Source: Octopus sinensis (lineage: Eukaryota). Taken from it: a stretch of DNA of 64,000 nucleotides. Below the pieces are notes generated by a model. That model worked only from the letters and a program-made list of their open reading frames with translations, had not been told where the DNA came from and searched no databases. A program made the translations under genes and the position numbers. Shown here piece after piece: positions 8,239 through 57,699 of this stretch; positions within the stretch are counted from its first letter, which is position 1; each line of letters opens with the position of its first letter. The stretch lies in contig NW_021832840.1 of the NCBI RefSeq assembly GCF_006345805.1, positions 31,693 through 95,692 on the forward strand. The letters are read 5' to 3'.

Positions 8239-10511
8239 TTAATGCAACAAATCATGGAAGGTGACCCCCACATTCGTGCTCAACTCAATATTCTCAGGGT
8301 ATACAAACAATCCGTGATTGGGTGGGCAATGAAAGTAAACAATTCCATCGACCACCCCGTCGGTATCCCCCTTCTCACTCTCCAACTCAATTCCCACCCG
8401 ACATTGATCCCCCTCATGTGTCCTCCCCACATATCGAACAATTCCACGCAATCCCCCATTCTTCAGTTGGACATATCGACCACTCGTCAACCACCAAGGC
8501 AAAGATGTACACTCCCCCTCCTCTCCCTGATCTGACCATACATCTCCCAATTCATCCAACCCTCCCAAAGCGTCCTCTTCACTCTCTTCAGGAGAAGGAG
8601 GGACAATAGGAGCAACAGTAGGGGGACTGGGTTGTTCTACCGGCTGACTCGGAGTTGTTGGTTGGAATGAGGAAGTAATACTTTTGCAGAATGAACCAAG
8701 ACGGTTGATGAGAGTAGAAGAGAATGTGTGGAGTGGGGAGTTCTGAGGGGTTTCTGCTTGTCTTATCTACAAATAAGAGGACAGGTCAACCTGATATTGT
8801 TTGTCCTGTTGGACTAGGTCGATCACGGATTGTAAAGTTAAACATTCGTGGGGAAGACTTCTCCCTCCATTCAATTGAAGGAAGAAACCCAAGAATGCTT
8901 GTTGGGGAAAGGAGTACTAAAATATCCCCAAAATAATACTCGAGGAATGCTAAATTCAACAATATTTCCCCATTTTTGAAACAGCGGGCACATCAAAGAA
9001 TGGAAGTAAGTCGAATGGATTATTCCCACATCAAGTGTCACGTTTTCTCCATAGAAAGGAGACTCCCACTTGACCGATTTAAGCTGAGATAAAAGAGGAG
9101 TGTTACTGTAAAAATATTGCCGAGGTAGTTGTCCCACCGGTCGAAAGTATGGTCGTCCCGTTTAATTGAGATGTGGCAGTGACCCAAAGGCATTCCACAA
9201 TGGCCAATGACCTGTGCAGAGAGACTGTCCCTCTCGTACAGACAATCGGCGAAAATTAAGCATGTCCCAAACACCTTCTGACACAATTGGGGTATCAATC
9301 CAAGAGGAATGGACTGTCCGGGAGTCCAACCGACATAGGGTGGTGGAATACATTTGGAAAACGAAGAAAGTCTTAATAATAGGCGAGTAAAATATTCAGG
9401 AAGTGACTGGAGAGGAATCGGGAGGTATTCAAGCATATCAGCATAACTGAGGGGCTCATCCACACAGAAAAAATGCTGATCAGCAATAGAAAGGACATCC
9501 CCACGGCGAAGAGGAGTGGGGGAGGAAATAGGCCTCTTATTAATAGTGATATAACTAATGTGCCCAGACAAAACTACCCGAATGACTCCACCATCAGTCC
9601 CTCTTCACAATATATTCGACAATGGGGGGACTCGATCCCCTTCCCTCCCAAAAAAAGAGTGTGTGCTGAGTATGGGACTTGTTCTCCGGTAGGGTAAACC
9701 AACAAATATGTCTGGGAGTAAAAAAGAGACCATACGTCGATTTGAAGAAAAGATTCACTAGAAAATGGGAAGAGACAATGAGGAGTGTGTCTCCTTTCTG
9801 GAAGGACGATGTGTCGATAAGAGTAGTACCGAGTTCTGTCGAGAGAAGGGGAATGGATGATTTGGTTATCTCGCAAAAGAACTGTCCATGACCACTTTCC
9901 CGAAAAACAGCGGACATTTCTCATAAGAATATTCCCAAAAAGAGTCTAGAATATAATTTTAATGATACCCTCCACACTTTTCTCAACTCGACAGTCACCT
10001 GCAAGTGACGAATAGCCCTCCCTACATCGCCCAACATACACTCCTCCTTCCTGATCAAGCCTTCCATCACCTCAATTTCAGACATTCTCAACAATGTCAC
10101 TTTCGGAGAGGACGTGGCCACTGACTGGAGTAGACTAGGAATTATACTTTGTGACTAATTGTCCGATGTAGAGTTATCACTGTGGTTATGTTCACCACTC
10201 CACTCTCCATCAAAAACATTCCTTTCCTCCACTCAATGTGACTCATTATGTCACCCCACGTGTCAGAATCCACAGAGACTGTACCTCGACTGTCATTGCG
10301 AGTGCCGAGCATGTCGATTAGTTTGTGTTCTTGAGAAGTGATTCCACAACAAGACAGTTCAACATGTCCACCCACTGTAGTAAGCAGACGTTTGGCTGTA
10401 TTATCAAATACAGTTCTTTGAGTTGTATCTAGACTGTCAATATGCGCAACCACCGTTTATGAGTAGTATCACGTCCTCCTCCTTCCACAATTTTGCTGAC
10501 AATTGTTCCAT
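8239..10511 (-). CDS. KIF13: KIF13/Khc-73-like kinesin-3 (degenerate motor, FHA, KIF13 stalk, CAP-Gly), about 10 short introns; start uncertain (10511 or 10564)
   Basis: FHA: LGGKGIESPHCRI...YITINKRPISSPTPLRRGDVLSIADQHFFCVDEP. Stalk: VFGTCLIFADCLY...IGHCGMPLGHCHISI, resembling KIF13 LIGVANVFLECLF...IISQQGEVAGRLHVEV. C-terminal CAP-Gly: GIVRYVGRTHEGDQCRVGIELESEKGDTDGVVDGIVYFHCPPNHGLFV. Exons join in frame via 23-24 nt introns (e.g. 9946-9968, 8917-8939). Confidence 0.75.
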
Positions 10512-43909: not shown

Positions 43910-44945
43910 TCACATTGAAAAATTTCTCAAAATGTGTTGCAATTATCTCCACCTGCTCCTCAGCATTCAGTAAAGTTTTGCCATTTTTATCCTTGATGAT
44001 TATTCGTTATTTCCGGTTTACGTGTCGTAATAAACGAGTGCCCACATACATTTGTGAATTATCTTTTAGTTTAAATAACCCTTTAATTTTGCGGAGCAGA
44101 TCTTTTGCTCAGTCCTCTGATTTTTCTACGGATCTGGTCCCTCTGCCCCTGAAGGGCTTTTCTTTTGTTATAGTCTTTTTCGTTTAGTTCCTGTGTATGG
44201 ATTTCTTTTAACTCCTTTGCTAGTTCTGTATGTACCGTCCGATCCGTATTGGCCGTCTCCCGCGTGAATAGCTTTCTACTTTTTTTATTATGTGCTAATC
44301 CCATCCCACGAAATTCCTACTGTTTGTTTCTTCAAATGGGAGCAAATATTTTTTGTAATTTCTGTTGCATATCCACTTTATGTTTTTTTTTTCCACTTTA
44401 TGTGTTCTCAATAACATTGTTTGTAATGTTGTTATGTTTCTTATGTTTGGCCATGCTGGAGGTGACAATAACCACTCCGTGATCACTGACTAAATCTTCA
44501 TATGAGAGGGCGTTTGTCATTAATCCGGCATATAATATAATCAATTTGGTTGTATGTAGAGACTAGCTTTCCATCTTTATTTCTTCGTTCGCCCATCCAA
44601 GTGGTTATGTGGTATGAATGATGGAAGAATGCGGCACAAGAACAGTTTATTTACTGTCCAGAAATGGCCAAGTATGGGCCAAAGCATGTATCTTTGCACT
44701 GTCTTCCCATGAAGGTATCTTCTGAGTTCTTTTTTGTATATAAGTGAGAAAGGCTCATATTCGTTATACGTTTTTGATAATGCTGAGTAAAATTCATCCA
44801 GTTCGGTCGGGTTTTTTACCATTTTTCCACGTTTATACATCCAATAAAAACTATATATCTTTCTAGGTCGTGAAAGAAAATATTTCTCGAGGGGGCTTAG
44901 ATATTCCTCTTGCATTGAACGTAAGAATCTTTAGGGCAAGCATAT
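43910..44945 (-). mobile_element. RTE-like LINE AP-endonuclease region, degraded
   Basis: Across frames: ILTFNARG, DEFYSAL, TTWMG...YNQIDYII...SDH; homologous to 57700-58320. Confidence 0.7.
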
Positions 44946-45719
44946 TTACCTATATCTTCTGCTATCTAAACATTTTTCTTAATTGTTGAACGGAAAAAAG
45001 AGGCATCTCACACACTCACTAAAAGGGTGACATTTTTTGTTATTTATTATACTTTATAATTAATTAGAATTAAAAAATAATTGATACATAAACAATCAAT
45101 TATACCGGTGTATTTTCACGCTTATTATTAGTTTTTCTTGTGATGCACTATGAAATTTTGTATTTACAAAAATTAAATTTGTACACAGTATTCTTATTAT
45201 TACTAACTTATTTACAATTTTTTTTATTTTTTGTTTATTTTTGTCTATTCATTATTGTTATGTTTATTGGTTCTTTTAATCTTCTCTTATACGAAGGGAG
45301 TCGATTTGAAGGCATCTATAAATGCTGATAAACATTATTAACAGTGATTAGTGCATTTTTTGATTTAGTTTGTATATAAAGACAGTATTGTTGAATACAA
45401 TCTGTTGATTTTTTTCTTTAATTTAATCTTTATTTTATATACCGTCCAAACTAAATTATATAATAACTTTGCGTACAAAAAGAGGATTCGCCTGTAACTG
45501 GATTTTAACCCAGAGAATAAAATACCGAATGTATACTTTTGTGAATGTTGAATCACATATTGCGCATCTAACAATCACATCCGTCACCGTCCATTTGCCA
45601 GACCACATCTACAATTTCAAATTTTTCTAAAAAACTGCATTTTTCCAAGTCCAAAGTTATTCAATATATTCAATTGTTTTCAATATTACTAAGAATATTG
45701 ATGTTGAAATCCGTTTTGT

Positions 45720-45990
45720 TGTTTAATCTTTTGAAATCCGTTTTGGCCAAAAGATTCCTAGGATGTATTTCAGCTGCATTCTGTGGAAGGAATTGAGATT
45801 TTCCATTTCATGCACTGTGAGTGCCCAAGAGGAGGAGTTGTACAGTAGGACTGGTTTTACGAACATATTGTAAAGTTTGATTTTTAAAAACGCAGAAATT
45901 TTTTTGCCTCTCAACCATATGTTGTTTAATCTTTTGAGCGCGAAAGTTGCAAGTGATTTTCTTCGTATCATGTCTTCTGTATCTCCTAAG
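45720..45990 (-). mobile_element. RTE-like LINE C-terminal fragment
   Basis: KIKLYNMFVKPVLLYNSSSW...LNSFHRMQL. Confidence 0.8.
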
Positions 45991-46079
45991 AGAGTTATAT
46001 GATTATTTGATATATTTTGATAGTTACATTATTATTATTTAAGCCAAACAGAATCACCGTCTTAACCAATTAACTAACA

Positions 46080-48230
46080 CGTTCAGGTGATTCCGACACT
46101 TCTCAACAGTCGAGGCATCTTTTCACGATGTTCCGACCGTGACCCCACACACTTTCTGTATGTACGGTGAATGGTTTGTGGTCCATTTCCACGATCCCCC
46201 CCATTCGCCTCTACGAGAGACTCCAGTGTTCTATGGACAATTTCCCTATCGGTGTGGTCCTTCAGTAGGTTGATAGATCTTTCTTGAATTTTTTCGATTT
46301 TTAGCCGGTTCGTTGCCGCCAGGTTACTGCCCCAAGCAGCACATGCATAGCCTATTGTTGGCTCGATATACTGATTGTAAAGGGTCTCTACCCCTGGCGG
46401 ATAAGTTCTCCCACAGTTCCAAAGGAAGGCTTTTACAAAATTGATCTTCTTTATACAGGTTGATACGATCGATTCTACGTGAGGTGAAAAACAGAGGAAA
46501 GTATCAAGCGTTACTCCCAATATCTTCTGTGTTTTCTTTTGTGGTATTGGAATTCCGTTCAACGTGACATCAATAGTTTTCGTCCCCATCTTCCTCTTTT
46601 TCGTGAATAGAGTGACTGCTGACTTTTCGGAACATGCATGTAGTCTGTTTTCATATAGCCATCTATATAAGTAGTTCAGTATTCTTTGTAGTCTTTTCTT
46701 CGCGTATTCGACATTTACATCCCTAGATGCGACAACTATGTCATCGGCATAGGAGAGTAGTATGTCATTATTATCCATAGGAGCCGGGAGATCATTCAGA
46801 AACAAGTTTAAGAGGGTCGGGGATAAAAAGGAACCCTGGGGTACACCATTGGGCAATAAGCGTGATCTTGAACTCTCGTTCCCGACGCACACTTTCCCAC
46901 GACGTCCGCTCAAAAAATTCGCAATCCATAGCTTCATAGGTGTAGAAATATTTGTACCAAATATCTTTTGAATTAGGATCTTCCTCGGGACGGAGTCAAA
47001 CGCTTTTTCAATGTCGATAGTGCATACAATCGATTTTTCCTGCATTTTTGTGTCCTTCATTTATGAAATCTGTTAGTGTGGTAAGGAAGGAGGTCGTTGA
47101 CAATCCTTCCTTGAATCCATGTTGGAATGTAGATTGTGGGAGGAAAGGTCGAATATGTTTTAGGACCAGTTTTTCCAAGATTCTTGACAACACACATATA
47201 AGGATACTGGTCTATAGGAGCCGGGGTCGTTCTTCGGTCTTCCAGGTTTTAATATTGGCCGGATTTTTGATAGTTTCTATAAGTTCGGTATAGCGTTCGT
47301 GATTAATGACGTGTTATAGATCGTGGTTAAAGCATTTATTGAAACAGGGCCCAAGTGTTTTAGTAGATTAAGTGGAATTCCATCCGGTCCACATGAGTTT
47401 GTTTTCTTCTGATTCGAGATTGTTTCAGACACCTCTTCAGGAAGAAAATAAGTCGTCGGGGGCCCTTTGGATGGCTTTGATTTTAATCTTGGCTGTGAGT
47501 TCATTTTTTTATAAGGAATATGACTAATCTTGACACAGTGTTTCATAAAATTGTTTAGATTGAGCTGGTATGTTTCTGTTTTACGCTCGTCAGGATTCTT
47601 CAAGCGTCTCAACATCGTCCACATGGTCGAAATAGAGGCTTGTTTATTCATAGCTCTAGAGATTCGGCTGAGCTTCTTCCTTTGGACTTGGTTGGTATTA
47701 TTCGTAATAAGCATGTTTAGAGCCCTGATTCGATCGATGATTCCTTTGGGTCGATACTTTCTTTTCTTGAGGCTGATTCTTTCTCTGATTAGTTTTTTTG
47801 TTCTTGAATCATATTTTGAGCTCCCACTTCTTATACATGCTCTTCTGATAATCAAATTCCTTGCATCTATGATAGTTTTGTTGAAGCTTTCCACTGCTCT
47901 GTCCAAGGAAAAAAAATTCTCAGGGTGGAAGTTCTGGAGTCTTGAATCGACGTAGTTTGCGAAAGCATTCCAATCTGCGTTTTCGTAATCATAGAAATAA
48001 GTTGGTTTCAGTATGGGATGTGGAGAACAGTTCATTCTCATTATCATTGAGTGGTGGTCACTTCGGAGATAAGCTTACGAATTTCAAGAAACGACATTTT
48101 CAAAATAATGGAGTTATCTAAGCTACCAATTATTCCATTTCACCACGCATTATTATTGGATTGTCCGGCAACATCGTGTGAAGTAGAAAATTTTCTATTC
48201 TTCACCAAATTTTAACCAAAGATAGAAATT
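46080..48230 (-). mobile_element. LINE (jockey/I-like) endonuclease end plus RT
   Basis: SDHH, GPDGIP, DIEKAFDSV, GVPQGSFLSPTLLN, YADDI; frameshifts. Confidence 0.9.
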
Positions 48231-48414
48231 TCCTACCTGAAAATGTTAAATATTATTTAATGTTATGCTTTAATAAATAAATTTCTGTTTCTTAGGGCAA
48301 CTTTTTATGCATATTATGTCAACTTTTTTTATTTTTTAAAGCAATTTAGTTGACTTTTAAGGTCAATTTTTTACATTATTATAAGCAACTTTCCGGTTAC
48401 CCTAGTCATCATAT

Positions 48415-49600
48415 ATGAGAAACTTCGCAGATTTTGTAAAAGATTCAATTGGAGAAAGTGAATATCAACAGATAGAAAAGGTACACGGTCTGAGAGAAGG
48501 AGATGAAATAAAACCTCGCAAATTCCTCTCGGGGAATTTTTACAACCCAAAGACAAAGACTGGGATAACCCTAGTTATCAGAAAGTGTACATGAGTGGAG
48601 GGCCGATCATGAATGTTAAGATGGAGGTTGGCACCTTCGCTCGCGAATATAGACCATTTATGATAGAGCTAAAATACAAATATACGAAGAACGATCGAGC
48701 GATAATAAATACTTTGAGTCGAATGACTGACTTTAACCAGGATTTAGTGACATCCAGTCTAGCTATCTTCTTAATAAACTATACATTTGATGCTCCCGCG
48801 AATTTTGGAGACATTGAAATCACTGAAGAGTATCAGGATATCACAGAATATTCCTTAGTTGAAAAAGGTTTCAAAGTCAGAACAGCAAAGATGGCCATGA
48901 ATTTGGGAGTCTGGTGCAGAAGGAGGAAGAGCAACACTTGAAGAGTGGAGAGTTGCCTTAATGAAAGCGCTCTCGCCTGTAAGATTTGCTCATGCAGCCG
49001 AAAGAAACCCGGATGCAGTAGATCCTCTCATGGACAGATACCACACCGTGATGCGCAATTTGGACCCAGCATACCAGCCTGAGAGGTCTTTGGTCTTGAA
49101 AATGTACCAAAAGTATCTACCAGACAGAGGATTAGATAAGCTTTGCTGTCTCTTGGACAAAATGTTGTACACATGTCCTGAAGATCCGATGTCTGCACTA
49201 CGATTCTGTACTATCCCTTTCTACAATGCAGGGAATGCAGTATTGTCACGTGTAGTATCACTATGTGCAGCGTTCCCAAGGGAGCTGGAAAGAGCTGTAA
49301 TGGTAGAATCTCTATTTGCATCTGCTCATGTAAATGAAGTGAGTAGGTTCATAGGGCATTGTTTTGAAGTCCTAAATCCGGATCACTTATGCATTTATTA
49401 GAAGGGATTAGGCCTTGTTAAAGCCTCTGCTTTTAGCTCTATGTCGCTGCCTGGATACTTTATGTGTACGAGTGCAATAGCGGCAATGATAAAGCACCCT
49501 AAATTCATGTTCTCTAGGTCAATCACGCCTAATCCTCAGGCTATGGTTAATGGCTTTTTGAACGTGACCTCCATCAGGAGGGAACGAGATGAAAGGCGAT
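48415..49600 (+). pseudogene. Endogenous viral element: rhabdovirus-like (Mononegavirales) nucleoprotein
   Basis: Reconstructed across 2 frameshifts and a stop at 49399-49401: KLCCLLDKML...SALRFCTI...EVSRFI...DHLCIY*KGLGLVKASAFSSMSLP. This parallels VSV N (KIVAAVDMFF...ASFRYGTI...SYMPYLIDFGLSSKSPYSSVKNP) and rabies N (IHFRSLGLSGKSPYSS). ITEYSLVE resembles rabies ITPGSLVE. Confidence 0.75.
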
Positions 49601-50446
49601 ATGATCAAGGCACAACGAAAGAGTTACGAAGTAAATCTCACCCCTTTCATATTGTTGGCCGATTCAAAATCTTTTTGTTCACCGACGTCGACCATAACAT
49701 GGATAGACTATACTCCAGATACATTCTTTTTCGGACCACTCATTTCTCGAATTTATTCCGTAGTGATGAGCATTGTTCCACAGCAGCGTCTATCTGATTG
49801 TACCCTCGCGGGATGCCAGCTTTACATAGCACACTGTGTGATGTACCTGATTCTGGAAGCCTACCAAAGCCATGCATTCGACCCGGAAATCCAGCAAGTA
49901 CTTGATAGTTATCGAGGTCTCAATATCCGAGATCTTCATTTTCCTGATTACTTCTTGGAATGGAAGAACGCCATCGGCGATTTTTCAATTCAGAAGCAGG
50001 ATCTCCGCCTCCGTCTTTTCCTCCCCCTAATTGACCGTTCGCAGTCGGCTCACAGAAACTATTTCTGGGACCCATCTACGGCGAATCTTCTACCAAACTT
50101 CGGAAGCATTTACCTCAAGATGTACTTAGCGTCAGATCTACATTCAATTCAAAGGAATGATAGAACCATTGAGCGCTACCGAGACCTACAACGGCTTACG
50201 GAGAACGTTTTATTTGATAACTCGATCGCTCGTTCACATGATGCGCTTCTTCCTTTCAGTTCTGAGACTTTTCAGGCCGGTTCGCGAAGTCAGCTTGCAA
50301 CTCTCGTTCAAGGTTTCTTATCCAAACCAGATTCCTTAAATGTGTACATGCGCTTTCTTAAATTTGACGAAGCAATTCTGAACAACATTTTCCAGTCCTC
50401 CCCTTGCTCCCAACCTGAGGGGCAACGTCTTCTCGATCATCAGTAG
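49601..50446 (+). CDS. Endogenous viral element: partitivirus-like capsid protein ORF
   Basis: Uninterrupted intronless ORF (49589-50446, 285 aa) with ordered motifs YTPD, QLYIAHCVMYLILEA, LHFPDYFLEWKNAIG, LFLP, LLPNFGSI. These recall partiti-like capsid motifs (YVPD, xLYxxxL.yxxiLR, LpIPGPL..ff.al, LPN); judged by eye. Confidence 0.5.
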   Translation: MIKAQRKSYEVNLTPFILLADSKSFCSPTSTITWIDYTPDTFFFGPLISRIYSVVMSIVPQQRLSDCTLAGCQLYIAHCVMYLILEAYQSHAFDPEIQQVLDSYRGLNIRDLHFPDYFLEWKNAIGDFSIQKQDLRLRLFLPLIDRSQSAHRNYFWDPSTANLLPNFGSIYLKMYLASDLHSIQRNDRTIERYRDLQRLTENVLFDNSIARSHDALLPFSSETFQAGSRSQLATLVQGFLSKPDSLNVYMRFLKFDEAILNNIFQSSPCSQPEGQRLLDHQ

Positions 50447-50494
50447 CTTTAGATTGCGATAATTATTTTCGTTCTCTAATTGTAAATCTTATCA

Positions 50495-51212
50495 GGAAAA
50501 TCTTTTATACGAATGGTCCTCCCCTCATACTGCATACAGATAATGGAAAAGAGTTTAAAAACTCAAAAATGGTTAAGTTTTGTGAGGAGTTTGGGACCAA
50601 ACATGTTTTTGGGCGTCCTCGTGGACCATGGGTTCAGGGACAAGTTGAAAGGTATAATTTTAGTATTCATTCAATAGATTTAATCAGTCGATTAAAAGAT
50701 GGTTGTCTTCAACAAGTGCGTCAGAAGGAACATTTGGGAATTATATGCCATTTCTTGGAAGGATCGTATTCAGATACAATACGACCGTCCACGAGACAAC
50801 ACAAAAAACTCCATTCTTACTTTTTACTGGCTGCCAGTATCCTCCAAAAATTAATTGCGATGATTTAAATAATCTCATTGCGTTTGAACCCAAGGTGGAA
50901 GTAGTTCAGGTAATTTATTTTAATGCATGTTGATAGGCATGTCATGGTGCATTGAGGAACACAATCAGGGCAGGGGAAAAAATGCAAAAAAGAAGGAGAT
51001 GGAAGGATGATGAAACGTGTATAGGAAGTGGTGATTCTGTCCTCATAAGAGGAGATTTTAACACAAATCCGGCACATCGAACGATGCCGCTTTACGACCA
51101 GGTGGATACGACTATATATAAAGTTGTGAAACAGAATGGCGACAACTATGAAGTTGAGAATGATGAGGGGATTTTGGTAAAAAAACATTTTTCACAATTA
51201 AAAAAATTATAA
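50495..51212 (+). mobile_element. Ginger integrase core and C-terminus with two introns
   Basis: PLILHTDNGKEFKN...RPRGPWVQGQVER|FNQSIKRWL...YNTTVHETTQKTPF; introns 50652-50677 (26 nt) and 50910-50936 (27 nt) restore the frame. Confidence 0.85.
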
Positions 51213-51759
51213 AAACATTCTTTTGTAATTTTAAATGATTAGGTTTTAGAGTTAATGCACCCTTAGGGTTAGAGTTAGGGTCAATCCATCCTTATAGATT
51301 TTTTTTAATTAAAAAATTTTTTACTCAATTTTTTTATATATATTAGTTATTAAAAACATATTTTATAAAATCAGGAAATATATAAATATTTAAATTGTGA
51401 TACTTTCAGTATTTTTATTGTTGCTGTAATCACCGACATTGGAATATTTCCAATAAGTAACAAAAAACTAAATAAATAATGATTTAGGACTAATCGATAA
51501 TAGATGCACCGATTTACAAAAAAACGGAAAAAAATTGCGATGGAGGCACACCTACGGCATAGGCACACTCGTGGACCGTGACATAATATAACAATAATTA
51601 AATTCGTGTTCAGTTTACAAAAAAAGTCTAGAAAAAAATATAACAATAATGATTAAAATTTGGTAGAAATTGATCATTTTAGATTTTAGGGCGCTACAAT
51701 ACAAGATCGCCAAATCCGGGAACAAATAAATAAAAGTTTGCCATAAGAATATAAAGAAT

Positions 51760-52040
51760 AGAACTTTCTATCAAAAAATAAGGTAAAATTCAATGAATAA
51801 AGATAAATGAGAAGATTTCAAATAAACGATATAAACAGATTGAAAGAATAAACTCGCAAATATTAAAAATGATGAAATTTCAGATAATTTATTAATTAAA
51901 AGAAACTACATCGCAAAATATTCCTTCTAATCCAATTAAATAAAAAATAAAGATTGACCAAATAATGTAACAGGACAACAAGGTATGTCAAAAGAATCCT
52001 CACACGTGCCACAATTTATTAGGTTTTCAATTAATAATTG
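51760..52040 (-). repeat. Copy of the dispersed AT-rich repeat
   Basis: Aligns to 22540-22700 (gatgaa.tttcagataattt...acatc.caaa.tattcctt...cacgtg). Confidence 0.55.
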
Positions 52041-52309
52041 GGTAACTAAAAATTAAGATAATTTTAATTAAAACACAATTCTACCTAGTAGCTTATAAAC
52101 AGTGTAAATACCAGAGGGGATATCTCAATGATGGCAAATTGTGAAACAGACTTGCGAGCAGATTTTGCAGATTCGAGAAGATTGTTTCCTTGAAACTTTC
52201 GCTCCAGTAGATTTTCGAGCAGTTTGTTCAGTTCTGGCCATGTTTTTTTTTATTTCAGACAGAACCGATTCAGACGAGTTATTTTTGTTTTATATAGTTA
52301 AACAACATT

Positions 52310-54130
52310 GTGAATGAATGAATGAATTTAGTTTATTGTAATTAACAGAGAAAGAGAAAGTGACAGGAATTGAGGACGGTGATAGGACGAGACTGATGCC
52401 AAGGCAACTGAACTCTTCTGAGCTTGCGTCCAATTCATCTGTCGTAAGCCAGAGTTAATAAAGTAGGTTCATTAATTTTTGACGAGTGCAGAGAGTTTCC
52501 GATCGATAAACAGGTCGGTCACCTGAGTTCTTTTCCGGAAGATCGGATAGATTTCTCAATGACCTGTCGTATCTCCGAGGATCTGGTCTCCGCCCAGCTT
52601 GGGACGGGACCTCGCGGGTCAAGCCTGTAACGTTGAGCGACAACTCGTCTACAGGCGAGTTGTCGCCTAACTCGCCTAAATTTATTTGGCGACAACTCGT
52701 CTACGAAGAAAAATATTTTAAGGGTAAATAAAATAAAATTTTAAAACAAGTACTTTTTATTCTGAACTTTTAAAGCAAATCAACCATCAATTAGCTTAAA
52801 ATAGCAATCTACTTCAAATTCATGAAAATTTTCACATGCTATTCTCAGTTCAAGTTCCTTTTTGCAGTCTATCGCAGACACTCCATTCCTGTCGCATCAA
52901 GAAAAAATTTTTCAAATTTCAATAAAACATTTTCCACAGTGATGAAAGCTAAATGGTAGCATTTCCTCAATAATTTTCGTTCCCACGATGAAACGTCTTT
53001 GTAGGCTCCCACAAGACCAAGACATTGTATTTTCCGCCATATCATTTGGCCGAAATGGAAATTGCAGCCAAATACATTAGACGACGAAAAAACTGATTTT
53101 GTGGAGTTAATTAACCCCTTTTCAAAATCAATTAAAATAATTGCTGGTGAAGTAACAACAAGTGTCTTTATTTCTTCAAATAATGCACAGTAGGCATTTT
53201 CTGTATCGCAAACTTTCAGGAATTTTAGGAATGGTCGGAACAAAATTTGGTATCAGTGTTTCTCTTTCCCGTTGAACGAGACGAGTCAATGAACGTTCCT
53301 TTGGCAATATTTTAATGACGTCAACATTGGCTCCAATGAGGCTTCTTGACACCACATTCATAGTTCTGTCTTCTGACGCCTTTGCGGCATCTTTCAGGTC
53401 AGAAAATAGTTTCATGCTTTTTATCTCATGATCCTCAAAGGGGCCATGGTTATGAGCATTTTTTGTGCTCAACTTGTTTTGAGCATCCACCGTGCACCTC
53501 GCCCTGCATTCTCGATTTCTGCACCTCCAATAGGTAAGACCGTCTTTTTTTCTATTTGTATTATACAAATAGTTCCGGTGTAGTAAAAGTTTGCCATTTC
53601 TTTGGCTTTTAAGCAGTTCAAAGTCAGTCATAATAAAGATTAAAGTAAAAAAATTGTTGAAATTTTAATTAATTAGATTTAATCTGGTAAAAATAAAATT
53701 TTTTATTTATTTTAAGTAGGCGAGTTGTCGCCAAATAAATTTAGGCGAGTTAGGCGACAACTCGTCTATAGGCGAGTTGTCGCATAGCCATTTTCTCGCA
53801 TTTCCCGCAAATTTTCTCGAGATCTTTCGAGTAGTACCATGCTTCCATTCCGTACAGCAAGCTGGGTAGGATGGTTGCATGGAACACGAAGAGGAATGTC
53901 TTAGGATCCAGATGCATGCTTCTTAAGAGGCGGAGAGCCGCAATGGCTTTCGCTCTCTTTTTCTTGACATGCAGACGGTAGCCCGAGTTAGCGTCGATTG
54001 TAAGCCCCAGGTAGCGTATGCAACTGGGGCGCATAATTTCGGTTAGGGGCCCAGAGCTCTGATCTGATGATTTTTCGAGTTGATTTGTAGGAAAGCGGAT
54101 TTATCCATTGCTAACGAGAGCTGTTTGCTG
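52310..54130 (-). mobile_element. L2/CR1-like LINE 3' end interrupted by a MULE
   Basis: IRYLGLTID...FHATILPSLLYGMEAW at 53790-54034; (ATTC)n tail at about 52312-52328. Confidence 0.65.
52637..53789 (-). mobile_element. Mutator-like (MULE) element with FLYWCH domain and long TIRs
   Basis: FLYWCH: YLYNTNRKKDGLTYWRCRNRECRAR...HNH. MULE domain: ILIDFEKGLINS...GCNFHFGQMIWRK. TIRs of about 70 bp. Confidence 0.88.
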
Positions 54131-54149
54131 GCGCATTACTCCTTTATTA

Positions 54150-54686
54150 CCTCAATGTAGGTGAAAAGCCTCTTTTCTGAGGTCAAGGGAGAGGATGATA
54201 CATATGAGTTATCTGAGGAGGAGGAAAAAGAGCTCAAATTTCTACCAGATATATTAATAGATGAAGAAATGATGAGCGAATGTGAGCAAGAAACCAGTTT
54301 TATTACCAAGCAATTGAATGAAATAAACGTGGATGAAGAAACACCTATTATATCCACCCGCTCTCTATCACATTCAACCAAAAGAAAATACTTAGAAACA
54401 GAAGATAACTGTTTGCTAAAGACGAAATATAATGCAGTTACTGAAAGTTCATAAGAAGTGAGAGAAGAAAAATCGACAATGAAGATGATAAAAAACATCA
54501 TCTTTGATGAAATTGAAAACTGGATAAAGCTTTTGCAAGTTCAATCAATCAATTAAGTTTATTGTAATAATGAGTAAAAATAACCAAACAAACACAGAAG
54601 GTAAGCAGACCGGTAAATTTTTATACGATTTTTGGAACAACCTTTGTTTTGGAACAATTAATGTTCCAAACGAAGGTTAGACTGTA
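54150..54686 (+). mobile_element. Probable pogo/Tigger 3' end (acidic tail plus right TIR)
   Basis: Acidic ORF followed by gttccaaacgaaggttagactg-TA, a CAGT-type TIR. Confidence 0.4.
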
Positions 54687-55149
54687 ACAATAAATTACCA
54701 CAATAATGTCTTGCAATTCATGTCTGGCATTCCCTCTAGTCAAACAAAATTGGAAATAACTGTTGATGGCAGTAACGCTCTCCTCAATCAATTCTATCCA
54801 TTACTATGTACGTCCAGTCGTACTCCCGCACTTGTTTCAGTTTGTTGCAGACATGATTCAGGAGAGCCTTTCTATACTGCACATAACAAAGTTTCTTATA
54901 TTCCAGAAAGTCGTGTAAATTCATTATTTTCGAATCACCCTATATGTAAGTCAGTTTATAGAATTAATTTATAAAAGTGAAATTGCCACAACCATGAACT
55001 GAAAGATAAAATATTTAATCATTCAGTTAAGATATAATCAATAAAATCCAAAGTATCCGTCAACACGGAAAAGATTCTCATGGAATCATTATGGTAGGAT
55101 TTTCAACAGTCATGTCGGTCTCTGAATATTAGTATTACCAGCAAATACA

Positions 55150-55570
55150 GGTTTCGAAGTCCTCAAAGTAGAAAGTAAAGATTAAAAATCGGCAGTTCTG
55201 GATTAGGCTGATCGATTCTGCACACACCCAAATCCACCAACAACTGGGCAACCCAGGGCGAGGGAGGGACGTCGAAGTTGTTCAGAGACACGCAGGAAAA
55301 TATTCTGAAAAGACCGAGAAGAGTCTTGAAATAGCAATAAATAAATAGTTGGATTGTGTCAGAACACGACATTGTTCCCTCGTGCTCAGTGCCTTTCTCA
55401 TTTATTAAATTGGTCTATCGGTTGAAAAGAAGGGATACTATCGACAATATCAACGTGGAATATAGTTCTTCCTGATCGGCCAACTCTTTCTTAGCAATTT
55501 CTATTTTGCTGTCGAAGGATGATTCATTGAGGGAGTTGTAGAGTGACTCAAACCTCAAATGGTCGTCGGC
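55150..55570 (-). pseudogene. Spliced host-gene fragment, weakly INTS3-like
   Basis: 24-nt intron gtatcccttcttttcaaccgatag. QEELYSTLILSI and FLRVSEQLRR..WVAQLLVDLGV resemble INTS3 QHEEICLGLFTLIL and YLKLQDTCRTQLVWLVRELVKSGV; a frameshift is needed. Confidence 0.3.
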
Positions 55571-55789
55571 ATGTCAAAATTAATATTAAAATATTATTAC
55601 ATTTTATATTCAGAATTTGAAATATTTATGAAATCCAGTTTTTGTTTAATGTGAAAATTCAGTTGATTGTTCGTATGTGTATCATCATCTACATCCGACA
55701 TAACCCGATCTTATTAACAAATTTAAATACTTTAAAAAATATACCATTATTTTATTACTGTTAAAGCATTTAACAGTGCTTGCACGGTG

Positions 55790-56045
55790 TTAGTCGCACG
55801 GTGTTAGTCGGTATAATGAATAACCGAAAATCAAAACAACGATACCTCCCAAACGGGGTCCCACAAGGATTCTCCTTATAACCAATCCTGTTCAATTTAT
55901 TTACAAGAGATCTCCCAAATCCAAACGACGAAGATACAATCCTTTTATCATACGCTGACAATCTAATTATTGCAGCAAAACATCAAGATTACAAAGAAGC
56001 CACGTGGAAAGTTCAGGAGACGATTAACCGTATGAAGCCATGGTT
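55790..56045 (+). mobile_element. LINE RT fragment
   Basis: LPNGVPQGFSLXPILFNLF...SYADNL. Confidence 0.8.
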
Positions 56046-56524: not shown

Positions 56525-57355
56525 TCATAGATCATGTGAAGAAAAAGTTTGACGTTTTTTCTGTCTTCTGTTTCCAAACCACCTTCCGGACTACAGATTC
56601 TGGCAAGTCAGTTTTTGCTACAATCTTCCCGATTCTTCTTTGTTTGGCTGAACGATGACTGAAAAAATATTTTCGAGGTATTCTATGGTTTTGTTATCAA
56701 AACATGTTCGTTTCTTTCTGGCTTTCGGGAGCGAATTCAATTGGGACTTGGAAATTGGGTTTTTCTTCAGAGATTCTAGAACAATCAAAAAAGAATCTTT
56801 TAGATTTTCCATTGCAGTAGTTGGGAGTTTACCCAACTCAAATCTGCATATAGTCGTTTGACACACGGGGAACCCGCCTCTCTTCATTATAATGGCCATC
56901 TCGGACTGTGAGTAACCAAAGTTCATTCTTTTAGCCTTGAAATAGTTTCCTAATTCTACCAAAGACTTTCTTTGAAGCATGTCGTCATTTACTGTTGCCT
57001 GTTCAGTAAATAGATGAGGCACATTGTCTTCCTTGTAATTATTGGAAATGGCAAGACTCAAATCGTTGACATCAGGCTGGTACAAAGTCACAGGAATTTG
57101 CTGACGAGCAATTTCATATTGGATGAAAGGCTGATTGTAATCTGAATAAGGGTTATCGAAAATTCGATAATCCTGTATGAAATCATATGAATTCATCTGG
57201 TAATGGTTTAAAAACAAATCATTGTCGGGAATCTGGTACATAGGTTGAAATGTCATGTTATCTGGAAATCTCCTTAAATTTTGGTGGTCAAAAGAATTTA
57301 AAAAAAAATCTTCATAAGGATTGCAGGCAAAAAATGTGTTATTGTAATCATTCAT
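56525..57355 (-). CDS. Divergent POU-domain homeobox gene; homeodomain needs two frameshifts
   Basis: POU-specific: ELGNYFKAKRMNFGYSQSEM...QTTICRFE...MENLK. Homeodomain: RKKRTCF...LENIF..., then in shifted frames IGKIVAKTDLPESVVR and WFGNRRQKKR. Confidence 0.8.
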
Positions 57356-57699
57356 GTTATAATTCCGATTGAAATAAAAAATGACGTCGTTTGTATTAAG
57401 TATGATAACCCCGCCGATCAGGTCAACGTGATATAAGAATTGCGTGGAATGAAATTAAATATAACCTGTACCTTTGAATAACCCAGAAAAAATTTTATGA
57501 TCGGTTTTAATAGAACTGACTAGACAAAAATTTAATCTAGTTTAGGATTGATAATTTTTTATTATAAATTATCATAATCATAATTTTTGATTCTAATGAA
57601 TATTTTAATTAAAGCAAAACAGCGTTCATCGATTTTTTAAGATAATGTTTATGATATATATGTGACCCTCAATTGCACAATGTCTGATATAACACAAGC

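What the first reader, a model, noticed from the sequence alone, without database searches (positions are those of the whole stretch)
48415..49600. Endogenised rhabdovirus-like nucleoprotein gene in a highly reduced animal genome
Seen: three short ORFs join into one protein of about 390 aa across two frameshifts (near 48570 and 48900) and an in-frame TAG (49399-49401), with no introns. Known: rhabdovirus N has D-x..R[YF]xTI followed by the RNA-binding Y/H..GL..S.[YF]SS motif; both appear here in order and with similar spacing. Inference: this is a fossil of a Mononegavirales infection of the germ line. Such viruses are little documented from animals with this genome style, such as dicyemid-like parasites.
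Basis: partly seen in the sequence, partly recalled or inferred. Interest (0 to 1): 0.85.

Follow-up and report, generated by a model that had tools for sequence, protein, structure and literature searches.

The report
Rhabdovirus fossil in likely dicyemid genome
This is a broken, cut-short copy of a rhabdovirus nucleoprotein gene, fused to a piece of a second gene that likely comes from a partitivirus, and it is one of many such viral fossils on contigs that likely belong to a dicyemid kidney parasite co-assembled with its mollusc host, which would make it a record of an undescribed virus lineage in a barely studied animal phylum.

Summary
Window 48415-49560 is an endogenous rhabdovirus N fragment. 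A profile of its in-genome relatives found 26 proteins; 24 pass Pfam Rhabdo_ncap, and the named viral ones are rhabdovirus proteins.

Corrections: the first frameshift is near 48520, not 48570. The gene covers only residues 1-386 of about 582. It abuts an unrelated intronless ORF (49560-50413), likely a partitivirus second segment. Transposon remnants flank both ends.

The assembly is a 2.7-Gb haemocyanin-bearing mollusc, but this contig belongs to a second animal: 23-25-nt introns, a separate repeat set, and a separate short 18S in the same contig class. That animal is likely a dicyemid.

Its contigs carry up to 22 N sequence clusters in four deep lineages with saturated silent sites, which points to repeated independent captures. 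They also carry G, L and partitivirus RdRp pieces, and PIWI-clade genes. The closest tree neighbours are flatworm-associated rhabdoviruses (weak placement). Expression is untested.

Verdict: a known kind of element, in a likely new host phylum, from a new virus clade.

The parts
46083..48070 (-). Non-LTR retrotransposon remnant (reverse transcriptase), 5'-truncated, upstream flank
   Evidence: RVT_1 E 4e-26 on 46086-47060; multi-copy up to 48070
48069..48404 (+). End of a multi-copy DNA transposon, likely hAT type, abutting the viral 5' UTR
   Evidence: 93-96% identical copies on many small contigs; a fuller copy scores Dimer_Tnp_hAT E 5e-4, just under the cut-off
48415..49560 (+). Rhabdovirus nucleoprotein (N) fragment, residues 1-386 of about 582, broken near 48520, near 48905 and by a stop at 49399-49401, cut at its 3' end
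   Evidence: 90% aa identity to the unbroken C6088 relative over 48907-49560
49156..49215 (+). DKML...RFCTI motif of the N core
   Evidence: aligned to the VSV N motif
49405..49440 (+). GLGLVKASAFSS motif of the N core, just behind the in-frame stop
   Evidence: aligned to the VSV N motif
49560..50413 (+). Second intronless viral-type ORF (open frame 49568-50446), lacking its first ~10 codons and probably its end; likely capsid gene (segment 2) of a partiti-like dsRNA virus
   Evidence: 22 in-genome matches; abuts N with no host DNA between; no similarity to N; a homologue shares its 5' leader with a partiti-type RdRp insert; no database homologue
50414..50485 (.). Short dispersed host repeat marking the 3' junction
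   Evidence: many copies at 87-99% identity begin at this position
50478..51212 (+). Integrase-type mobile element remnant, downstream flank
   Evidence: rve E 1e-9; 95-98% copies elsewhere; fuller copy rve E 2e-15
8767..8790 (-). Predicted 24-nt intron in a host gene (CAP-Gly-like by recalled motif); marker of the contig's organism
   Evidence: inferred from the reading frame, no transcript
56618..57454 (-). Divergent POU homeobox gene; marks the contig as animal
   Evidence: Pfam Pou E 6e-08

Best explanation
The feature is a broken, 3'-truncated DNA copy of a rhabdovirus nucleoprotein gene joined to a fragment of a second gene of likely partitivirus origin, likely made by a host retrotransposon's reverse transcriptase copying viral RNAs in a co-infected cell, and it lies on a contig that likely belongs to a dicyemid parasite co-assembled with a mollusc host. 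SHOWN: N homology; lesions; truncation; the abutting second ORF; transposon flanks; many other N, G, L and RdRp pieces confined almost wholly to the same class of small contigs; saturated silent sites between N copies. INFERRED: reverse transcription by a host element. The N/ORF2 join arose either by a template switch between two viral RNAs or by a later deletion between two neighbouring inserts. Fixation happened in a heritable cell line, followed by transposon insertions and segmental duplication. The family came from repeated captures of different circulating strains of one undescribed rhabdovirus clade. This copy likely makes no functional N; if it does anything, it would be as a small-RNA template.
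For: N identity: 26 hits among 1.84 billion proteins, 24 of 26 over the Rhabdo_ncap cut-off. Named hits include nucleoproteins of OKIAV8, sigmavirus, Muir Springs, Kamese, Rochambeau, Kwatta, Apis rhabdovirus 3 and Beihai dimarhabdovirus 1, and a protein of Triaenorhabdovirus 2. All 4 PDB sequences at E<=10 are nucleocapsid proteins (weak, E 0.7). An HMM of the 26 hits finds the window frame at iE 4e-27 (partly circular). Integration: three contigs carry four copies with about 7.5-22 kb of collinear flank, and a short-read contig bridges the N/ORF2 junction (48608-50333). Independent captures: 34 N-like stretches form 22 clusters at >=90% nt; of 251 overlapping pairs 18 are >=95%, 1 is 85-95% and 232 are below 85%. 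pN is 0.04-0.16 against pS 0.58-0.95 in 16 of 16 non-identical pairs. Other genes: 33 L matches, 3 G matches, G followed by L on C9340 behind two further ORFs, and a second ORF directly behind N on C6088. Second organism: 121 of 125 viral-type matches lie off the 30 chromosomes that hold 86% of the bases. Window repeats are shared with 23 of 25 stretches from virus-bearing small contigs and both stretches of the short-18S contig, but with 0 of 57 chromosome stretches. Introns are 23-25 nt on this contig, there are two 18S types, and haemocyanin lies on the chromosomes. PMC13644364 (passages) finds such short introns only in dicyemids and myxobolids.
Against: The window alone scores under the Pfam cut-off, and pairwise identity to known N is only 19-24%. 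The single-sequence searches found nothing. Both structure models failed (pLDDT 35 and 32), so no fold test was possible. ORF2 has no database homologue. The leader match holds for 2 of 6 pairs tested after the fact (1 and 7 of 20,000 background 60-mers). It does not hold for the C12601 homologue, which is 61% identical to the window's ORF2, and the window's own leader is lost. No poly(A) tail or target-site duplication was seen at the insert's ends, so the mobilising element is unknown. No listed short-read piece spans either host junction, and the only holding run is probably the source sample. The dicyemid call rests on features and recall, not on a sequence match. The 22 clusters are an upper bound, because short non-overlapping pieces may share an origin and a kidney population may mix individuals or species.
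Confidence: 0.8

Rival explanations
1. The N-like family is an old domesticated host gene family under purifying selection, and the window holds a recently broken paralogue.
For: pN is far below pS in all pairs. One 582-aa frame and its neighbour ORF on C6088 are unbroken. The window's frameshifts are not in all copies.
Against: Most copies are cut at different points and sit among different transposon pieces. They have no introns, in a genome with frequent tiny introns. G, L and RdRp pieces show the same scatter. Selection acting in the free viruses explains low pN equally well.
Confidence: 0.07
2. The contig belongs to another parasite with ultrashort introns (for example a myxozoan) or is unplaced host DNA, so the dicyemid assignment is wrong while the viral reading stands.
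For: Myxobolid myxozoans also have 22-27-nt introns (PMC13644364, passages). No reference 18S could be aligned; the paper's fasta supplement was unreadable and a piece of the short 18S was not found in the two readable supplements. The small contigs total up to 378 Mb, far above the 67.5 Mb of D. japonicum (PMC6736024), though they also include host pieces.
Against: The host is a haemocyanin-bearing mollusc, and dicyemids were found in 172 of 227 cephalopod samples (PMC12953835, passages). Divergent POU genes are typical of dicyemids (PMC6543705, passages). There is zero repeat sharing with 57 chromosome stretches, which excludes host DNA.
Confidence: 0.1
3. ORF2 is not from a partitivirus but is an orphan gene of a rhabdovirus lineage or of a host transposon, so the insert is not a two-virus chimera.
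For: No hit to any capsid family. The leader match fails for 4 of 6 pairs.
Against: The gene behind N in the close C6088 relative is a different protein, and ORF2 matches nothing in the multi-gene insert on C9340. ORF2 homologues lie about 1 kb behind RdRp pieces on C12471 and C12462 (probably one event duplicated). Saturated silent sites with low pN are unlike a transposon burst.
Confidence: 0.25
4. The locus is an assembly chimera of contaminating viral cDNA and host repeats.
For: The flanks are high-copy repeats, and no listed short-read piece spans them.
Against: Four copies on three contigs share both junctions and long flanks, and all carry a stop codon. Dozens of other inserts lie in different flanks. 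RNA viruses are not expected in a DNA library (established knowledge).
Confidence: 0.03

Closest known systems
Non-retroviral endogenous viral elements from rhabdovirus N genes (e.g. the Aedes aegypti, Euphydryas and Gnathostoma host-genome proteins among the hits; the dog whelk N contig called a likely EVE in PMC6085071, passages)
   Same: Intronless N fragment in host DNA among transposons, with lesions and several copies.
   Different: The host is likely a dicyemid; N is about 582 aa and under 25% identical to known N; up to 22 clusters in four deep lineages; here fused directly to a gene of likely dsRNA-virus origin.
Flatworm-associated rhabdoviruses: Triaenorhabdovirus 2 (Betaplatrhavirus) and Beihai dimarhabdovirus 1 (unclassified; from a fish-gill sample with monogenean reads per PMC9241645, passages)
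   Same: Nearest neighbours of the in-genome N group in the tree (SH-aLRT 90); hosts are likewise parasitic spiralian worms; N similarly long (493 and 538 aa).
   Different: Only 19% identity over 154 aa; quick tree with a long-branch warning; those are exogenous viruses, not found in host genomes according to PMC9241645.
Partitivirus CP and RdRp genes integrated in cellular genomes (PMC12027680, passages)
   Same: An RdRp insert on the same contig class is 53-62% identical to 8 IMG/VR contigs of 1.1-1.9 kb, the longer ones with a single ~540-550-aa ORF; a leader shared between segments is a partitivirus trait (PMC7332551, passages).
   Different: ORF2 has no detectable homology to any catalogued capsid; the reported hosts are mainly plants and insects.

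Membership tests
Rhabdoviridae (source virus) | N homologous to Rhabdo_ncap (PF00945) | tested here: met
   Met through the family profile: 24 of 26 hits over the cut-off. Direct scores stay under the cut-off (window 14.3 bits, best in-genome stretch 19.1, cut-off 26).
Rhabdoviridae (source virus) | Two-lobed helical N fold as in VSV and rabies virus | tested here: inconclusive
   Model pLDDT 35, Foldseek meaningless.
Rhabdoviridae (source virus) | L polymerase grouping with rhabdoviruses | tested here: inconclusive
   L pieces on the same contig class hit 6ueb (E 5e-70) and VSV L 5a22 (E 1e-62) far above other Mononegavirales (E 6e-19 at best). They are not physically linked to this N, and no L tree was built.
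Rhabdoviridae (source virus) | Gene order N-P-M-G-L | tested here: inconclusive
   N followed by an unnamed 266-aa ORF on C6088; two unnamed ORFs, then G, then L on C9340; never all on one insert.
Rhabdoviridae (source virus) | Rhabdovirus-type glycoprotein | tested here: met
   Rhabdo_glycop_FD over the cut-off on C9340 and C8699, with Rhabdo_glycop_CD in two of three; elsewhere in the genome, not at this locus.
Rhabdoviridae (source virus) | Conserved gene-end/gene-start signals | tested here: inconclusive
   One intergenic region was read by eye; no signal was established.
Rhabdoviridae (source virus) | Enveloped virion with negative-sense RNA genome | not testable with these tools
   No RNA holder listed.
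Endogenous viral element | Viral sequence inside cellular DNA with host flanks | tested here: met
   Four assembled copies with long collinear flanks. Read-level support covers only the internal junction.
Endogenous viral element | Inherited through the germ line or fixed in the population | not testable with these tools
   One sample only.
Partitiviridae capsid gene (ORF2) | Sequence or fold homology to known partitivirus capsids | tested here: inconclusive
   No hit in Pfam, PDB, the protein databases or IMG/VR, and the model failed. A resemblance of motifs is recalled only.
Partitiviridae capsid gene (ORF2) | 5' terminal sequence shared with the RdRp segment | tested here: inconclusive
   Strong for the C12471 and C12462 homologues against the C12814 RdRp insert (1 and 7 of 20,000), absent in the other 4 of 6 pairs. 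The window's own leader is lost.
Partitiviridae capsid gene (ORF2) | A cognate monocistronic partitivirus-type RdRp | tested here: met
   RdRP_1 E 2e-22; relatives on 1.1-1.9-kb contigs; present in the genome, not at this locus.
Dicyemida (organism of the contig) | Introns mostly under 30 nt | tested here: met
   5 of 5 introns picked on this contig are 23-25 nt, and 5 of 5 on C6088 are 24-33 nt. Picked by eye in three genes, not a genome-wide sample.
Dicyemida (organism of the contig) | Lives in a cephalopod | tested here: inconclusive
   The chromosomes carry multi-unit molluscan haemocyanin and a 2.5-2.65-kb GC-rich 18S. That this points to a cephalopod is recalled.
Dicyemida (organism of the contig) | 18S or protein phylogeny with Dicyema | not testable with these tools
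   No reference sequences were available.

The most novel reading that the evidence does not exclude
Dicyemids host their own deep clade of rhabdoviruses, related to those of parasitic flatworms, plus partitiviruses. They archive fragments of both, even fused into single inserts, in transposon-dense clusters that feed a PIWI small-RNA defence like that of mosquitoes. Rhabdoviruses reported from cephalopod transcriptomes would then be largely viruses of the kidney parasite.
Probability: 0.3. Interest if true: 0.82.

Novelty: new member of a known kind. Interest (0 to 1): 0.62.

Why it matters
Rhabdovirus N fossils are common in animal genomes, so the kind of element is ordinary. Three things lift this one.

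1. It would be a first viral record for Dicyemida as far as my searches reach. The two dicyemid genome papers contain no occurrence of the word 'virus'.
2. The fossils show at least four N lineages and three L lineages with no close relative in the databases searched. This bears on the proposal in PMC9241645 that parasitic worms sit deep in rhabdovirus evolution, and on which organism really hosts 'cephalopod' rhabdoviruses.
3. A genome of a roughly 30-cell animal with repeated captures, co-located fragments of unrelated viruses and PIWI-clade genes makes EVE-derived small-RNA immunity outside arthropods directly testable.

It also flags that part of this assembly is parasite DNA.

Tried and rejected
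NO HITS
- Single-sequence homology searches: N and ORF2.
- ESM Atlas: only low scores with unrelated names.
- AlphaFold models of both proteins were unusable and their Foldseek results meaningless.
- PDB hits of the ORF2 profile were designed repeat proteins, taken as chance.
- Rfam: nothing in 44000-56000.
- Earlier scan notes: nothing.

EXPRESSION
No RNA holder was listed; this is no evidence either way. Runs X2 and X3 had next to no cover over the insert, which is not proof of absence.

REJECTED READINGS
- ORF2 as the C-terminal part of N, or as the P gene: no similarity to N or to the gene behind N on C6088.
- The N family as a post-insertion duplication burst: silent sites are saturated.
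- The contig as host DNA.

ROWS DROPPED
- the C381 stretch was cut out of frame and gave no rows; pairs under 80 codons were not printed.
- loci L035 and L040 were left out as duplicates, and some weak matches were not fetched.
- the tree is the quick method, because the careful run did not finish. It used 9 in-genome rows chosen as lineage representatives.

NOT SEEN
- Rey-Campos et al. 2023, on rhabdoviruses in cephalopods, is not held; I saw only its title in a reference list.
- The fasta supplement of PMC12953835 was unreadable and could settle the 18S identity.

Full report
OBSERVATION. The sequence from ATG 48415 to about 49560 encodes an N-like protein in pieces. Against an unbroken 582-aa relative on contig C6088 it aligns as residues 1-48, 32-168 and 169-386, at 50, 77 and 90% identity. 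The frame breaks lie near 48520 and 48905, and a TAG stands at 49399-49401. The gene stops at residue 386, where a second ORF takes over with no host DNA between. The assembly holds four near-identical copies: the window, C10060 and two on C11370, with about 7.5-22 kb of collinear flank. The first frameshift is in 2 of 4 copies, the second in 3 of 4, and the stop and the junction in 4 of 4. A short-read contig over 48608-50333 bridges the N/ORF2 junction. It differs from the window by three gap letters, the same number as the frameshift-free copy over that span (positions not displayed). The second frameshift may therefore be an assembly error or a minority variant (inference).

IDENTITY OF THE FIRST ORF. 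Pfam Rhabdo_ncap matches the window weakly (E 0.019, under the cut-off), and single-sequence searches find nothing. A profile of 14 natural in-genome stretches searched against 1.84 billion proteins gives 26 hits at E<=1e-3, best 9e-14. Of the 26, 24 pass the Rhabdo_ncap cut-off. The two that do not are a protein of Triaenorhabdovirus 2 and the nucleoprotein of Beihai dimarhabdovirus 1. The same profile returns only nucleocapsid proteins from PDB (4 of 4 at E<=10; weak). Pairwise identity to known N is 19-24%. In a quick tree of 35 rows the 9 in-genome rows form one side of a branch (support 90), in four deep lineages, next to those two viruses, with a long-branch warning. The grouping is also biased by how the rows were found. 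Structure prediction failed.

A FAMILY OF CAPTURES. The own genome gives 41 N matches on 27 contigs (48 candidates scored). Thirty-four stretches fall into 22 clusters at 90% nucleotide identity, with almost nothing between 86 and 95%; this is an upper bound. Between clusters, pN is 0.04-0.16 and pS 0.58-0.95 in 16 of 16 pairs, and pS is saturated in 14. Neutral decay after duplication cannot give this pattern. Divergence under selection as free viruses, followed by separate captures, does. L gives 33 matches (a floor), in at least three lineages at about 43-58% aa identity on small contigs. Its best PDB hits are 6ueb and VSV L; that 6ueb is rabies L is recalled. G gives 3 matches. On C9340 two unnamed ORFs, G and a broken L lie in rhabdovirus order over about 6 kb. 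On C6088 N is followed by a 266-aa ORF that has 18 in-genome matches. Some inserts therefore span gene junctions. Seventeen of 55 contigs with viral-type matches carry two or more kinds of gene.

THE SECOND ORF. 49560-50413 has 22 in-genome matches on 15 contigs and the same low-pN, saturated-pS pattern (3 of 3 pairs). It has no introns, no similarity to N, and no hit in any library tried. It lacks about ten N-terminal codons relative to homologues, and a host repeat begins at 50414. The genome also holds partiti-type RdRp inserts (8 matches). Their relatives are 8 IMG/VR contigs of 1.1-1.9 kb at 53-62% identity. RdRp pieces lie about 1 kb upstream of ORF2 homologues on C12471 and C12462, with transposon pieces between. 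The leaders of those two homologues resemble the leader of the C12814 RdRp insert: 1 and 7 of 20,000 background 60-mers score as high, and the background includes these loci. The other 4 of 6 pairs do not match. PMC7332551 (passages) states that the 5' 20-30 nt are conserved between partitivirus segments. I put a partitivirus segment-2 origin at about 0.7.

WHOSE GENOME. G000 is 2,719 Mb, of which 30 chromosome-scale contigs hold 2,341 Mb (86%). Those chromosomes carry multi-unit molluscan haemocyanin (35 of 37 matches) and a 2.5-2.65-kb 18S of 64% GC. Small contig C1618 carries a different 18S of 1,667 nt and 45% GC. Of 125 viral-type matches, 121 are off the chromosomes; the other 4 are one L locus on C23. 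With the insert masked, window repeats match 23 of 25 stretches of virus-bearing small contigs and both C1618 stretches. They match 0 of 57 chromosome stretches and 0 of 9 other small stretches, five of them short PIWI-domain loci. Host genes on this contig have predicted introns of 23-25 nt (5 picked), and those on C6088 24-33 nt (5 picked). A POU gene marks the contig as animal. Dicyemid introns have a median of 27 nt (PMC6543705, passages). D. japonicum is 49% repeats (PMC6736024, passages). Only myxobolids match such introns among animals (PMC13644364, passages). Dicyemids were found in 172 of 227 cephalopod samples (PMC12953835, passages). A dicyemid is the best reading (about 0.85); it is not shown by phylogeny.

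MECHANISM. Rhabdoviruses and partitiviruses have no DNA stage (established knowledge), so a host reverse transcriptase must have made the copy. Non-LTR elements are abundant here, one lies 350 nt upstream, and another abuts the C6088 copy. The join of two cut viral genes without host DNA fits a template switch between two RNAs in a co-infected cell; a later deletion between adjacent inserts fits as well. Both outer ends meet transposon or repeat ends, with no poly(A) or target duplication visible, so the carrier is unknown. Dicyemids multiply from germinal cells inside the axial cell (recalled), which would make such insertions heritable. With a stop and a missing third, this copy is unlikely to give a working N. 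PIWI-domain genes occur on small contigs. The one tested, on C9497, which also carries an N piece, is closest to PIWI-clade structures. A small-RNA role is therefore possible but untested; no RNA run was listed.

COMPARISON AND NOVELTY. It works like, and by the tested features is, a non-retroviral EVE of rhabdovirus N. The source virus is best called rhabdovirus-like and unclassified, since L and G are not linked to this N. Such EVEs are known from insects, a nematode (host-genome hits) and likely a snail (PMC6085071, passages). Partitivirus EVEs are known too (PMC12027680, passages). My searches (listings and abstract starts) showed no report of viruses or EVEs in dicyemids. One survey includes the phylum in a read-level classification without detail in the passages seen (10.1101/2023.11.03.565523). 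PMC10101049 has no occurrence of 'dicyem'. The library lacks most subscription journals and the cephalopod virome paper. PMC9241645 (passages and section 9) shows that rhabdoviruses first assigned to fish, amphibians or molluscs can belong to their worm parasites; the same may hold here.

VERDICT. Real feature; interpretation supported and extended. New member of a known kind, interest 0.62, owing to the likely new host phylum, the divergent virus clade, the number of captures and the two-virus fusion.

Noticed in passing
G000 C1-C30 versus small contigs such as C9311, C6088, C1618: The assembly mixes a mollusc with a second animal that has ultrashort introns and its own 18S and repeats. Annotations of the unplaced contigs may be parasite genes.
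   Followed up: yes
L113 = G000:C23:23140149-23141653: A broken Mononegavirales L fragment on a host chromosome, only 34-44% identical to the small-contig L pieces; likely the mollusc's own EVE.
   Followed up: partly
L223 = G000:C9340:11657-17764 (-): A 6-kb multi-gene insert: two unnamed ORFs, rhabdovirus G and a broken L; further G and L pieces lie nearby on the other strand.
   Followed up: partly
L093-L094 = G000:C6088:8256-10928: An unbroken 582-aa N-like frame followed by a 266-aa ORF, between a retrotransposon and host genes with tiny introns; a recent capture or a maintained copy.
   Followed up: partly
L115/L167 (C12418), L168 (C12814), L169 (C12598): Partiti-type RdRp inserts, 95-100% alike. 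C12418 (37 kb) carries two N pieces, two gene-2 pieces and RdRp, like a cluster of viral fragments.
   Followed up: partly
L199 (C9497), L200 (C8702), L204/L209 (C12468), L211 (C7758): PIWI-domain genes on small contigs; the one tested is PIWI-clade and has short introns.
   Followed up: partly
L108 = G000:C12637:27303-28775: A 491-aa frame of no known family directly upstream of an N piece; related pieces lie near N or L fragments on C6250, C12598, C12603 and C8999.
   Followed up: no
window 56618-57454 (-): A highly divergent POU homeobox gene inside a block that is duplicated on other contigs.
   Followed up: partly
window 567-38857 and 53176-53664: Many remnants of one retrotransposon family (CRE/NeSL-like by recall), plus Tc1/mariner-, hAT- and MULE/FLYWCH-type pieces; the window is mostly mobile DNA.
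   Followed up: no
G000:C11370:1-29324: The window's 44.8-64 kb block occurs twice in tandem on this contig; a segmental duplication or uncollapsed haplotypes.
   Followed up: partly
window 51263-51282: A few TTAGGG-like units inside the contig, behind the integrase remnant.
   Followed up: no
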